DNA of 9,830 nt from a plasmid. The stretch is taken from sequence record NZ_CP102822.1; one strand, written 5' to 3'. Shown here one piece after another: positions 9,001-9,830 of the stretch (within the stretch, counting starts at the first letter, position 1; every line of letters begins with the position of its first letter). A program made the position numbers.

Positions 9001-9830
9001 GTGTGACAAAAAAATCCCGGCATGTGCCGGATCTTGGATTGGAAAATTGGCTAAAGTGACGTAGGGCCGGTGCTTGGTTTTGCATGGAAAAAAGTATTTA
9101 TTTCCTTGTTTAGAAAAACGTAAAAAATCAATTTTTTGTCCATTCATCCAGGTTAAAAATTTCAACCCAAAACTTTAATTATGAAAAGCTTCATAGAACG
9201 CGTTCAAATGCGATTTAAGAGCCTTTACCTAGAAAACATAGATCTCATAGTGAAAAACACAAAACAGCTCAAAAAACGCAAATGAGAGCGAAATAAAGAG
9301 GTATTTTGACTTTAGATAGATGCATAGAGCGAGTGTCTACGAGCGAACTATCAAAATTTGCGCCTAGACCCTCTGAAAAACATTTTTTTGTCCTCTTTAG
9401 CCTAAGAAAGCGTAAGTTTCGTGCAGAAATTTGCTCCTGGATCGAGCGTAGCGAGTAAAAAAGTTTTATGAGCGAAGCGAATTCCAAGTTTCTTTTGCTT
9501 TTTTTTAAAGTCACGCCAGTATTAACCAAAAAATTGCCCCAACGAACTGAGCGAAAGCGAAGTTCAATAGAGTTTGAGCGAAGCGAAAACCAAGGGCAAT
9601 TTTTCATTCCCTGGGCTTTTAATTATTTTAAAGTTTTTAAATACTTTTAAATGGCTTGAAAGCCTTATGAATAAAGGGTTTTAGCTCTTATATGTCCACG
9701 TTTACCTTGCAATATGTCCACGTTTACCTTGCAATATGTCCACGTTTACCTTGCAATATGTCCACGTTTACCTTGCATTAGTACACAAATAATATTAACG
9801 TGTACTTATACACAATAAAAAATAGTGGCT

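What the first reader, a model, noticed from the sequence alone, without database searches (positions are those of the whole stretch)
9280..9600. Duplicated AGCGA-AGCGA dyad units spaced about 10 helical turns apart, immediately upstream of the iterons
TGAGCGAAGCGAA(WW)CCAAG occurs twice, at 9469 and 9575. Each copy is preceded by a second GAGCG-N-AGCGA dyad 25-27 bp upstream, and degenerate copies occur further upstream. The two ~45-bp units are about 105 bp apart, so they present on the same DNA face. These are not the Rep iterons, which have a different sequence. They may be binding sites for the co-transcribed HTH protein or a host factor, a replication enhancer, or a second cryptic origin. 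ORF-track frames through this region (9269-9607 minus, 9468-9650 plus) are low-complexity and are probably artefacts of the repeats.
Basis: seen in the sequence. Interest (0 to 1): 0.55.

Follow-up and report, generated by a model that had tools for sequence, protein, structure and literature searches.

The report
Conserved DNA hairpin array beside plasmid origin
The repeated "AGCGA-AGCGA" motifs are the tips of small, evolutionarily maintained hairpins, including a 76-base Y-shaped fold next to the unwinding region of the replication origin; about 900 Acinetobacter resistance plasmids share them, and they resemble the long-unexplained "par" stability locus of plasmid pSC101.

Summary
GAGC-N3-4-GCGA occurs four times on the + strand at 9444-9586 and nowhere else in the window (0.18 expected by chance).

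The motifs are better read as hairpin caps than as duplex binding dyads. Each cap is 5'-Y-GA-GC-(loop, mostly GNA or GNNA)-GC-GA-R-3'. The second unit (9529-9604) is a three-way junction, with 98% of cells paired in 61 distinct relatives and 10 pairs showing compensatory changes.

The array lies 12 nt from the AT-rich region. The iterons start a constant 80-92 nt after the junction's GGGCA. It is about 90% conserved while Rep identity falls to 24% and the iterons change completely. It is non-coding and has no Rfam match. It also occurs in a plasmid with no recognisable OrfX gene.

The pSC101 par locus carries the same caps in the same position, including the identical 13-mer TGAGCGAAGCGAA in its relatives. 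No extended homology to par is detectable.

Best reading: a par-like, cis-acting, strand-specific structured-DNA accessory of the origin. A priming (ssi) signal or a small RNA remain possible.

I found no description of it in the literature I could search. Function is inferred, not shown.

The parts
9327..9346 (+). hp0: putative hairpin with two tandem G.A/A.G steps, GAGC-GA-GT-(GTCT)-AC-GA-GCGA
   Evidence: Read from the sequence. The block is at least 95% conserved among 108 relatives. Variants are G.T wobble or T-A at paired positions. There is no covariation, so the fold is only consistent with the data, not shown. A competing long-range helix predicted by folding is not kept in relatives.
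9443..9455 (+). hpA1: mini-hairpin C-GAGC-GTA-GCGA-G (first cap of unit A)
   Evidence: The closing pair is C..G in 79 of 88 relatives and the loop is G..A in 79 of 88. In 6 relatives the two G.A/A.G steps become Watson-Crick pairs (CGAGC-loop-GCTCG), which shows these bases face each other.
9468..9482 (+). hpA2: mini-hairpin AT-GAGC-GAA-GCGA-AT (second cap of unit A; contains the 13-mer TGAGCGAAGCGAA)
   Evidence: The T..A closing pair is kept in 88 of 88 relatives and the loop is G..A in 84 of 88. Relatives extend or exchange the stem: GCAT/ATGC, GTAT/ATAC, CTT/AAG.
9488..9527 (+). T-rich spacer (TTGCTTTT-type repeats, variable copy number) followed by the conserved AAAGTCAC...ATTAACC blocks
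   Evidence: Changes in its length account for the 94-131 bp variation between units.
9529..9604 (+). Y element, a three-way junction. Outer stem 9529-9539 / 9594-9604. hp1: stem 9544-9548 / 9561-9565 with cap 9549-9560. Linker AATAGA 9566-9571. hp2: stem 9572-9575 / 9587-9590 with cap 9576-9586.
   Evidence: The minimum-energy fold is identical with DNA and RNA parameters (z -3.55 and -5.00). In 61 distinct relatives 98.1% of cells are paired, 10 pairs have compensatory changes (111 cells), and register-shifted controls give 24-47% paired. The covariance model scores 101.8 bits here.
9616..9652 (.). AT-rich region (presumed unwinding element) with repeated YTTTTAA units; includes the 12-bp palindrome TAAATACTTTTA at 9638-9649
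   Evidence: This part of an nhmmer profile also matches Rep_3 plasmids of Psychrobacter and Pseudomonas and three larger Acinetobacter plasmids, all of which lack the hairpin array. The palindrome is the one described for BMMF1/Sphinx DNAs (PMC10378824).
9690..9777 (+). Four 22-bp iterons (Rep binding sites)
   Evidence: family D1. In relatives the iterons start 80-92 nt after the junction's GGGCA in about 90% of loci with detectable repeats, and their sequences differ completely between plasmids.
1..951 (+). rep (Rep_3 initiator: Rep3_N + Rep3_C; NCBIfam repM_Acin)
   Evidence: A Rep_3 homologue lies downstream on the same strand in 109 of 111 loci that carry the element.

Best explanation
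What it is. The region 9327-9604 is a non-coding, cis-acting accessory module of the Rep_3 replication origin. It consists of four well-supported strand-specific hairpins, plus a putative fifth (hp0), all on the strand that also carries the rep coding sequence. Every hairpin ends in the same cap: a pyrimidine-purine closing pair, two tandem G.A/A.G mismatches, two G-C pairs, and a 3-4 nt loop that is usually GNA or GNNA. That loop and its G-C pairs make up the 'extraordinarily stable' DNA mini-hairpin d(GCGNAGC)/d(GCGNNAGC). Two of the hairpins are joined by an 11-bp outer stem into a 76-nt Y junction 12 nt from the AT-rich unwinding region.

Proposed mechanism (inferred):
1. When the AT-rich region melts, or under negative supercoiling, the + strand folds into these hairpins. 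The complementary strand, which would carry C.T mismatches, folds much less well.
2. This holds the origin flank open.
3. It also offers structured landmarks that SSB binds poorly, for host enzymes to use.
4. Initiation becomes more efficient, and so does stable inheritance of small plasmids that lack partition genes.

This is how the pSC101 par locus behaves: it is a gyrase-binding, supercoiling-dependent enhancer of origin function and stability, and it carries the same caps in the same position.

Shown here: the motif, the folds, the covariation, the strand asymmetry, the fixed geometry relative to the AT-rich region and iterons, the independence from Rep specificity, and the shared caps in par.

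Inferred: that the folded molecule is DNA rather than RNA, the identity of the host factor that reads it, and the effect on replication and stability.
For: - Motif enrichment.
- Covariation: hp1 has at least 7 Watson-Crick variants of its stem (GAACT/AGTTC, GAATC/GATTC, GAAGC/GCTTC, GCTGT/ACAGC, GCTGC/GCAGC, GCATC/GATGC, GACC/GGTC). hp2 alternates GTTT/AAAC with GTAC/GTAC. The outer stem alternates T-A with C-G.
- G.A/A.G positions: invariant in 242 of 244 cells of the Y element, and replaced by Watson-Crick pairs in 6 relatives at hpA1.
- Strand specificity: at internal stem positions there are 5 G.T wobbles and no A.C.
- Loops: G..A in 321 of 352 caps, switching freely between 3 and 4 nt. 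The closing pair is always Y..R in hpA2, hp1 and hp2 and in 80 of 88 at hpA1.
- DNA versus RNA stability: d(GCGAAGC) and d(GCGAAAGC) melt at 76.5 C whereas r(GCGAAAGC) melts at 39 C. Such motifs sit at the G4 and RSF1010 ssiA priming sites and bind SSB poorly (PMC13037366). The unit A hairpins have almost no supporting stem, so they are plausible only as DNA mini-hairpins.
- Distribution: 902 PLSDB records, 895 of them Acinetobacter.
- Linkage to the origin: Rep_3 downstream in 109 of 111 loci; iterons 80-92 nt away in most loci with detectable repeats.
- Decoupling from Rep: Y core identity about 0.9 whatever the Rep identity, over 24-100%; present with a Rep only 33% identical (L256).
- Minimal replicon: present in a 2,120-bp plasmid.
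- pSC101 par: caps at pSC101 4806, 4892 and 4936 on the rep-sense strand, upstream of the DnaA box, AT-rich region and iterons. They lie in the most conserved part of par-like regions in 212 records. The exact TGAGCGAAGCGAA occurs in 4 of 5 relatives. The loop of cap 2 varies (TT/ATA/AAA). One relative has lost both GA steps symmetrically.
- par function: a deletion of pSC101 about 4612-4893, mapped from the published primers, makes a pSC101-derived vector unstable (PMC4041236). par binds gyrase and raises origin superhelicity (PMC5043065).
- Positional replacement: three larger Acinetobacter Rep_3 plasmids with a homologous AT-rich region lack the array. Two of them carry a divergent gene annotated 'AAA family ATPase' (possibly ParA-like; not checked) in its place.
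Against: - No experiment bears on this element.
- Similarity to pSC101 par is limited to the caps. nhmmer and covariance-model searches find no extended homology. Local alignment recovers only 13-17 nt. The cap count over the whole of pSC101 is not above chance (3 against 1.3 expected).
- Folding energies do not separate DNA from RNA or clearly favour one strand.
- About 9% of caps overall, and 17% at hp2, have loops (AAA, ATA, TTTA) outside the most stable GNA/GNNA class.
- Most relatives were collected with patterns that fix 15-21 of the 79 core positions, which inflates apparent conservation of those positions. The covarying positions were free.
- Sequences are phylogenetically related, so the number of independent compensatory events is smaller than the cell counts.
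Confidence: 0.5

Rival explanations
1. A primase-type single-strand initiation signal (G-site, or G4-type ssi). After helicase loading at the AT-rich region, the leftward fork exposes the + strand, which is the leading-strand template for that fork. The hairpins exclude SSB and recruit the host primase DnaG to lay down the first leading-strand primer, as at the G-site of plasmid R1 or at the G4 complementary-strand origin. This overlaps with the best explanation but names priming as the sole function.
For: - The + strand mini-hairpins include GCGAAAGC, the very motif of G4 hairpin I, where the annotated primer starts (PMC13037366).
- RSF1010 ssiA has a similar mini-hairpin next to its iterons and AT-rich region.
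- The element is immediately adjacent to the unwinding region with constant geometry.
- The folded strand has the polarity expected of a leading-strand template for the leftward fork (inference from the coordinates).
- The R1 precedent is from my own knowledge (Masai and Arai 1989).
Against: - A 5'-CTG-3' primase start site 3' of the structure is present in the window (9612-9614) but in only 26 of 96 distinct flanks.
- The covariance model finds nothing in G4.
- It does not explain why three larger Rep_3 plasmids with a homologous AT-rich region do without it.
- It does not explain why the same caps sit 100-200 bp from the pSC101 origin in a locus whose deletion phenotype is instability and loss of supercoiling.
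Confidence: 0.2
2. A small structured non-coding RNA of about 80 nt (or up to about 280 nt), transcribed from the + strand towards the origin and ending at the T-run of the outer stem. It would act in plasmid replication or copy control.
For: - Covariation fits RNA as well as DNA.
- The RNA fold has the best z-score (-5.0).
- Most hp1 loops are GNRA-type (GAAA, GTAA, GCAA, GAGA).
- The outer stem is flanked by an A-run and a T-run like a terminator.
Against: - No Rfam family matches at E up to 1.
- No sigma-70-like + strand promoter is found in 9150-9830, and no conserved -10 with T at position 6 appears upstream in relatives.
- Loops switch freely between 3 and 4 nt and include GATA and TTTA, which is unusual for a GNRA tetraloop.
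- The unit A caps have only 1-2 supporting pairs, and r(GCGAAAGC) melts at 39 C.
- RNAalifold finds no consensus structure in unit A.
- The 291-nt region as a whole is not more structured than shuffles.
- No sRNA is reported here in the Acinetobacter transcriptome papers I could read.
Confidence: 0.13
3. A bidirectional transcription terminator or insulator that shields the unwinding region and iterons from transcription entering from the accessory modules on the left.
For: The outer stem is flanked symmetrically by A6 and T5 tracts, so either strand would give a hairpin followed by a U-run. Upstream genes differ in identity and orientation among plasmids.
Against: - The terminator scan finds none here.
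- A branched 54-nt interior with two invariant caps is far more elaborate than termination needs.
- It does not explain hp0 or unit A, which have no T-run, nor the strict conservation of the G.A steps.
Confidence: 0.07
4. Duplex binding sites for a protein: the plasmid's OrfX helix-turn-helix protein or a host DNA-binding protein that recognises AGCGA direct repeats.
For: The AGCGA and GAGC bases are the invariant parts of each cap. OrfX is annotated as a 'plasmid replication DNA-binding protein' and accompanies Rep in 87 of 111 loci.
Against: - Duplex recognition does not predict compensatory changes in three flanking helices, nor replacement of the G.A steps by Watson-Crick pairs.
- Half-site spacing varies by 1 nt within a cap, and unit spacing varies by 37 bp.
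- The element is present where no OrfX was detected, and the same caps occur in pSC101 par, where no OrfX-like gene is annotated (not searched by sequence).
Confidence: 0.06

Closest known systems
par (partition/stability) locus of plasmid pSC101
   Same: - Non-coding and cis-located in a Rep_3 (pSC101-type) replicon, on the side of the AT-rich region away from the iterons and rep.
- Contains three hairpins framed by GAGC...GCGA on the rep-sense strand (pSC101 4806, 4892, 4936).
- Relatives carry the identical 13-mer TGAGCGAAGCGAA.
- Cap loops vary in the same way (TT, ATA, AAA) and the closing pairs are Y..R.
- Found in small plasmids without partition genes.
- par is known to enhance origin function through gyrase binding and local supercoiling, and its loss destabilises the plasmid (PMC5043065, PMC4041236).
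   Different: - No extended sequence homology.
- par lies 100-200 bp from the origin and has no three-way junction. The Acinetobacter array abuts the AT-rich region (12 nt).
- par has other conserved blocks with no counterpart here.
- Gyrase binding and the stability phenotype are untested for the Acinetobacter element.
- The classical description of par as three 'PR' segments is recalled from memory. I could not access those papers to map the segments onto the caps.
G4-type single-strand initiation signals (phage G4 complementary-strand origin; plasmid G-sites) and RSF1010 ssiA/ssiB
   Same: Strand-specific hairpins containing d(GCGAAAGC)-type mini-hairpins at or next to a replication origin. 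The proposed role of excluding SSB is shared. In RSF1010 the arrangement is iterons, AT-rich region, then ssi hairpins (PMC13037366; G4 sequence).
   Different: - No sequence or structure match to G4.
- No conserved CTG start site.
- No plasmid primase (RepB') gene is evident among the window's ORFs, so an RSF1010-type mechanism is unlikely.
- The tandem G.A frame and the Y junction are not features of those signals.
d(GCGNAGC)/d(GCGNNAGC) 'extraordinarily stable' DNA mini-hairpins (Hirao and colleagues)
   Same: All four caps in the window contain GCGTAGC, GCGAAGC (twice) or GCGAAAGC. Across relatives, 321 of 352 loops are G..A.
   Different: That is a physico-chemical motif, not a biological system. 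Here it is embedded in a longer conserved frame (Y-GA...GA-R) and in covarying helices.
Conserved 12-bp palindrome TAAATGCTTTTA, the 'putative origin' noted in BMMF1/Sphinx circular DNAs (Acinetobacter-plasmid-like)
   Same: Same plasmid family and same intergenic region. The window has TAAATACTTTTA at 9638-9649. A published BMMF1 back-to-back primer (TGCAGAAATTGCCCCTCGACT, PMC6713099) overlaps the 5' arm of the Y element, so those DNAs carry the element too.
   Different: The published feature is a different, shorter palindrome inside the AT-rich region (PMC10378824). The hairpin array and Y junction are not described in those papers.

Membership tests
pSC101 par locus | Non-coding segment in cis, flanking a Rep_3 origin on the AT-rich/DnaA-box side | tested here: met
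   Window order is hairpin array, AT-rich region, iterons, rep. pSC101 order is par, DnaA box, AT-rich region, iterons, repA.
pSC101 par locus | Sequence homology to pSC101 par | tested here: not met
   nhmmer with the Acinetobacter profile gives no hit in pSC101. The covariance model gives no hit in par. Local alignment recovers only the 13-17 nt cap.
pSC101 par locus | GAGC...GCGA-framed hairpins on the rep-sense strand (a feature I identified in par here; it is not a published criterion) | tested here: met
   pSC101 caps at 4806-4816, 4892-4901 and 4936-4955, conserved in the par-like regions of five Enterobacterales plasmids. Window caps at 9444, 9470, 9549 and 9576.
pSC101 par locus | Specific binding of DNA gyrase; raises negative supercoiling at the origin | not testable with these tools
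   Known for pSC101 (PMC5043065, PMC6379681). No data exist for Acinetobacter plasmids.
pSC101 par locus | Deletion gives unstable inheritance or lower copy number, in cis only | not testable with these tools
   Known for pSC101 (PMC4041236). It needs a deletion analysis in Acinetobacter.
G4-type ssi / G-site | Stable hairpins on one strand containing a GCGAAAGC-type mini-hairpin | tested here: met
   G4 hairpin I.
G4-type ssi / G-site | Conserved 5'-CTG-3' primer start just 3' of the hairpin | tested here: not met
   CTG is at 9612-9614 in the window but in only 26 of 96 distinct flanks.
G4-type ssi / G-site | Similarity to the G4 complementary-strand origin | tested here: not met
   The covariance model finds nothing above noise in G4.
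G4-type ssi / G-site | Primase-only priming on SSB-coated single strands | not testable with these tools
   Biochemical assay required.
Rep_3 iterons | Tandem 17-22 bp repeats that change together with their cognate Rep | tested here: not met
   The element is about 90% conserved across Rep identities of 24-100%, while the 21-22-bp iterons differ completely.
Known RNA families (Rfam 15), tRNA/tmRNA | Match to a curated covariance model or to a tRNA model | tested here: not met
   No hit in 9280-9610 at E up to 1. ARAGORN finds nothing.
Intrinsic transcription terminator | G+C-rich hairpin immediately followed by a T-run | tested here: inconclusive
   The consensus scan finds none, but the outer stem is flanked by A6 and T5. 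The branched interior is atypical.
Protein-coding gene (ORFs 9269-9607 minus, 9468-9650 plus) | Reading frame kept open in relatives; recognisable family | tested here: not met
   No Pfam hit. The frame is not conserved. Relatives show 1-2 nt indels.
d(GCGNAGC)/d(GCGNNAGC) mini-hairpin motif | Two G-C pairs closing a GNA or GNNA loop | tested here: met
   4 of 4 caps in the window. 321 of 352 caps in 88 relatives. The definition comes from PMC13037366.

The most novel reading that the evidence does not exclude
The GA-framed mini-hairpin (Y-GAGC-loop-GCGA-R) is a general, strand-specific structured-DNA signal. A conserved host enzyme (gyrase, primase, or another replisome or repair factor) reads it at Rep_3 plasmid origins in both Enterobacterales and Acinetobacter. 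It is the true functional unit of the pSC101 par locus, whose mechanism has stayed unclear for four decades. The Acinetobacter Y junction would then be an elaborated version that most small resistance plasmids of this genus depend on.
Probability: 0.3. Interest if true: 0.8.

Novelty: new variant of a known kind. Interest (0 to 1): 0.66.

Why it matters
- Scale and clinical relevance. The element sits in about 900 sequenced Acinetobacter plasmids. These include the small Rep_3 plasmids that carry OXA-24/40-type carbapenemase genes, as this window does. It is more conserved than their initiator proteins. A cis element that the plasmids need, and that is common to plasmids of many incompatibility types, would be a useful handle for vector design, for plasmid typing, and for thinking about plasmid curing.
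- A testable idea for par. The shared cap in pSC101 par gives a concrete hypothesis, with specific bases to mutate, for how that classical but mechanistically vague locus works.
- Method. It is also a clear case of covariation pointing to a folded DNA or RNA element inside a plasmid origin.

Tried and rejected
- Coding: rejected.
- tRNA or known RNA family: nothing found.
- Promoter and terminator scans: nothing on the + strand.
- Long-range helix GTCTA/TAGAC predicted around hp0: the partner varies while GTCTAC stays invariant, so it was rejected.
- Consensus fold for unit A plus spacer: RNAalifold finds none, so unit A is two isolated mini-hairpins.
- An outer stem around unit A: tried by eye and not supported.
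- Conserved DnaA box or CTG next to the Y element: 4 of 96 and 26 of 96 flanks respectively, so rejected as general features.
- Homology to G4 or to pSC101 par by covariance model, nhmmer and Smith-Waterman alignment: only the cap matches.
- First genome-wide pattern: too loose. About 24 of 120 loci were real and the rest were chance matches in unrelated taxa, so the single genome scan was largely wasted.
- A cluster of three GAGC...GCGA matches 344 bp apart in L254: part of an unrelated repeat.
- Literature: no description of this element in Acinetobacter plasmid papers or BMMF papers. The original pSC101 par papers were not held.
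Full report
**Context.** The window behaves as a complete circular Acinetobacter plasmid of the Rep_3/OrfX type.
- rep is at 1-951 (Rep3_N + Rep3_C; NCBIfam repM_Acin) and orfX at 944-1519 ('plasmid replication DNA-binding protein').
- Four 22-bp iterons lie at 9690-9777.
- There are three pdif (XerC/XerD) sites.
- Other ORFs: a class D beta-lactamase-like ORF (which I recognise as OXA-24/40-like), an IS4/5-family transposase and an 803-aa ORF that looks like a TonB-dependent receptor.
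- The finding's region is 100% identical in many 8.7-kb A. baumannii plasmids.

**Observation.**
- The 20-mers at 9469 and 9575 are 90% identical.
- GAGC-N3-4-GCGA occurs four times (9444, 9470, 9549, 9576), all on the + strand and nowhere else in 9.8 kb. Expectation is 0.18, and 0 of 200 shuffles reached 4.
- Degenerate GAGCGA copies lie at 9286, 9327 and 9341.

**What the motifs are.** Relatives with quite different iterons keep this region, and the way it varies is informative.
- Around the two motifs of the second unit, the flanking bases change in a compensatory way:
  - GAACT...AGTTC in the window becomes GAATC...GATTC, GAAGC...GCTTC, GCTGT...ACAGC, GCTGC...GCAGC, GCATC...GATGC or GACC...GGTC.
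  - GTTT...AAAC becomes GTAC...GTAC.
  - An 11-bp inverted repeat enclosing both (9529-9539 / 9594-9604) switches T-A to C-G.
- On 61 distinct sequences the resulting three-way junction has 98.1% of cells paired, 10 pairs with changes on both sides (111 cells) and a covariation score of 0.24. Column shuffles give 0.08, and register-shifted controls give 24-47% paired.
- The same structure is the minimum-energy fold with both DNA and RNA parameters.
- The motif itself is the cap of each hairpin: a Y..R closing pair, G.A and A.G opposed, two G-C pairs, and a 3-4 nt loop.
- The G.A/A.G positions are invariant in 242 of 244 cells.
- In six relatives the first cap of unit A reads CGAGC-loop-GCTCG. 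The mismatches have become Watson-Crick pairs, which shows these bases face each other in a helix.
- Loops are G..A in 321 of 352 caps and alternate between GNA and GNNA.
- Unit A (9443-9455 and 9468-9482) is two such caps with only one or two supporting pairs. No larger consensus fold exists there.
- A further, nearly invariant block at 9327-9346 can form a hairpin with two successive GA steps. It shows no covariation, so that fold is only plausible.

**Where it occurs.**
- blastn finds the region in 902 PLSDB records, 895 of them Acinetobacter. The most widely kept part is 9428-9610, the two units.
- Pattern scans of genomes and metagenomes added about 140 loci.
- Of 111 loci with enough downstream sequence, 109 have a Rep_3 gene on the same strand (24-100% identical to the window's Rep). 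The 21-22-bp iterons begin 80-92 nt after the junction's GGGCA in about 90% of loci with detectable repeats. The iteron sequences are unrelated between plasmids.
- Identity of the Y core to the window stays near 0.9 in every Rep-identity bin, including below 40%. The caveat is that 15-21 core positions were fixed by the search patterns.
- A covariance model built from the alignment scores 101.8 bits in the window. It finds the element upstream of a Rep only 33% identical (L256).
- The model finds nothing in phage G4, pSC101, a Psychrobacter plasmid, a Pseudomonas lundensis plasmid, or three larger (30-118 kb) Acinetobacter Rep_3 plasmids.
- An nhmmer profile shows that the AT-rich part of the origin is homologous in all of those except G4 and pSC101 (E down to 7e-14), but the hairpin array is not. 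The array is therefore an add-on module of the small plasmids. In two of the larger plasmids a divergent gene annotated 'AAA family ATPase' (possibly ParA-like; I did not check) occupies its place.
- The element is present in a 2,120-bp plasmid whose only other annotated ORF matches no NCBIfam family. It thus survives in a very small replicon and does not need OrfX.

**Excluded readings.**
- Coding: no Pfam hit, no conserved frame, and 1-2 nt indels.
- Known RNA or tRNA: none.
- Iterons: the conservation pattern is the opposite of what iterons show.
- Helical phasing of two duplex units: the spacing ranges from 94 to 131 bp.

**DNA or RNA?** This cannot be settled computationally. Four points favour DNA.
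1. The cap core is exactly d(GCGNAGC)/d(GCGNNAGC), which melts at 70-76.5 C as DNA. The RNA r(GCGAAAGC) melts at 39 C (PMC13037366).
2. The unit A caps have almost no other pairing, so they make sense only if the mini-hairpin is intrinsically stable.
3. Loops flip between three and four bases and include GATA and TTTA.
4. No + strand promoter is apparent or conserved.

Two points favour RNA: the better z-score and the terminator-like A/T tracts. The structure is strand-specific either way. There are G.A caps, and 5 G.T wobbles against 0 A.C at internal positions.

**Link to pSC101 par.** I looked at pSC101 as a control and found the same caps in its par region, on the rep-sense strand, upstream of the DnaA box, AT-rich region and iterons:
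- T-GAGC-GCA-GCGA-A at 4805-4817.
- GCCC-GAGC-TT-GCGA-GGG at 4888-4904. GAGCTTGCGA is also a variant seen in Acinetobacter.
- GAGC-AAAC-AGC-GTTT-GCGA at 4936-4955. This parallels the Acinetobacter variant GAGC-ATCCC-GAAT-GGGT-GCGA.

The par-like region occurs in 212 Enterobacterales plasmid records, and its most conserved part is exactly this stretch. In five aligned representatives:
- The first cap is GAGCGAAGCGA in four, giving the identical 13-mer TGAGCGAAGCGAA.
- The loop of the second cap varies (TT, ATA, AAA), one stem has a G.T, and one relative has lost both GA steps symmetrically while keeping the hairpin.

A published par deletion that destabilises a pSC101-derived vector maps, by its primers, to about 4612-4893. 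It removes the first cap and half of the second (PMC4041236). par is described as a gyrase-binding site that raises negative superhelicity at the origin and enhances replication (PMC5043065). Gyrase also prefers loops and mismatched parts of palindromic REP elements (PMC6379681).

Against homology: profile, covariance-model and local-alignment searches find nothing beyond the cap, and the cap count over the whole of pSC101 is not significant. I therefore claim a shared motif in the same functional position, not membership.

**Mechanism.** The best-supported reading is a par-like, cis-acting structural accessory of the origin.
- When the adjacent AT-rich region opens, or under negative supercoiling, the + strand folds into very stable capped hairpins and the Y junction.
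- The complementary strand, with C.T mismatches, stays comparatively unstructured.
- This would stabilise opening next to the unwinding region and present structured landmarks, poorly bound by SSB, to host enzymes.
- The candidates are gyrase (by analogy with par) or primase (by analogy with G4, R1 and RSF1010; PMC13037366).

By polarity, the folded strand is the leading-strand template of a fork moving away from the iterons, so a priming role is geometrically possible. However, the expected CTG start site is not conserved. All functional steps are inference.

**Novelty.**
- Papers on Acinetobacter plasmid structure and typing mention iterons and an AT-rich region but not this element.
- The BMMF/Sphinx literature describes a different 12-bp palindrome in the AT-rich region (TAAATGCTTTTA; window 9638-9649) and putative ATTTTCAT DnaA boxes. 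One of its published primers overlaps the Y element's 5' arm.
- I found no report of the covarying junction, of the cap rule, or of the shared cap in pSC101 par.
- The search library lacks most subscription journals, including the original par papers, so earlier notice of the par hairpins cannot be excluded.

Noticed in passing
L259 (pSC101) 4805-4955; L260-L263: The pSC101 par region and its relatives in Proteus, Shigella, Pectobacterium and Salmonella carry three GAGC...GCGA-framed hairpins. One contains the same 13-mer as the window. A short piece of par (4853-4913) also occurs at 92% identity in many 33-55-kb Enterobacterales plasmids; in the one examined (pKPC-9d88) it lies near a gene annotated 'plasmid replication initiator RepA'.
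   Followed up: partly
window 9616-9686; L251, L252, L254, L255, L258: The AT-rich part of the origin (repeated YTTTTAA units, then CTGAAAGCC...) is recognisably homologous in Rep_3 plasmids of Psychrobacter and Pseudomonas lundensis and in larger Acinetobacter plasmids that lack the hairpin array (nhmmer E from 7e-14 to 0.03).
   Followed up: partly
window 1829-1852 (+), 3628-3651 (-), 8046-8069 (-): Three perfect pdif (XerC-spacer-XerD) sites. The first two flank the class D beta-lactamase-like gene (1865-2692, minus strand; I recognise it as OXA-24/40-like), together with an IS4/5-family insertion sequence (2844-3590). This makes a dif module with an IS inside.
   Followed up: partly
window 8640-8930: Very AT-rich stretch (22% G+C) with repeated TGTACA-containing units. 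For example, 8748-8797 and 8817-8866 are 78% alike (ATGTACAATCATGAGTACA / ATGTACAACCATGAGCACA). It lies upstream of the uncharacterised 123-aa ORF at 8250-8621 (minus strand), which has no Pfam or NCBIfam hit. It may be an operator or a second set of protein-binding repeats.
   Followed up: no
L004 (Klebsiella pneumoniae IncQ1 plasmid NZ_CP125147.1) 1500-1660: A fragment with the second cap of unit A and a complete Y element, but no Rep_3 gene within the 3.1-kb stretch, sits next to aph(3')-VIa in an IncQ1 plasmid. Here the Y element is followed by a perfect DnaA box (TTATCCACA). It is probably a relic of an Acinetobacter plasmid carried along with the resistance gene.
   Followed up: partly
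one search hits H109-H120: A truncated Rep_3 gene (aa 53-305 of the window's Rep, 63-71% identical, unannotated) is embedded in large plasmids of Vibrio, Klebsiella, Enterobacter, E. coli and Providencia. It looks like a widely travelled fragment of an Acinetobacter replicon.
   Followed up: no
L056, L057, L037: Contigs that carry the Acinetobacter element are filed under Ancylomarina (545 bp), Pseudomonas brassicacearum (435 bp) and a Bacteroidia MAG. This is probably contamination or mis-binning rather than true hosts.
   Followed up: no
L120, L177, L203, L205: Some contigs carry two copies of the whole element. L120, L177 and L205 show a second origin region each; L203's second copy was not examined. 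They are likely cointegrates, dimers, or assemblies that run round a small circle twice.
   Followed up: no
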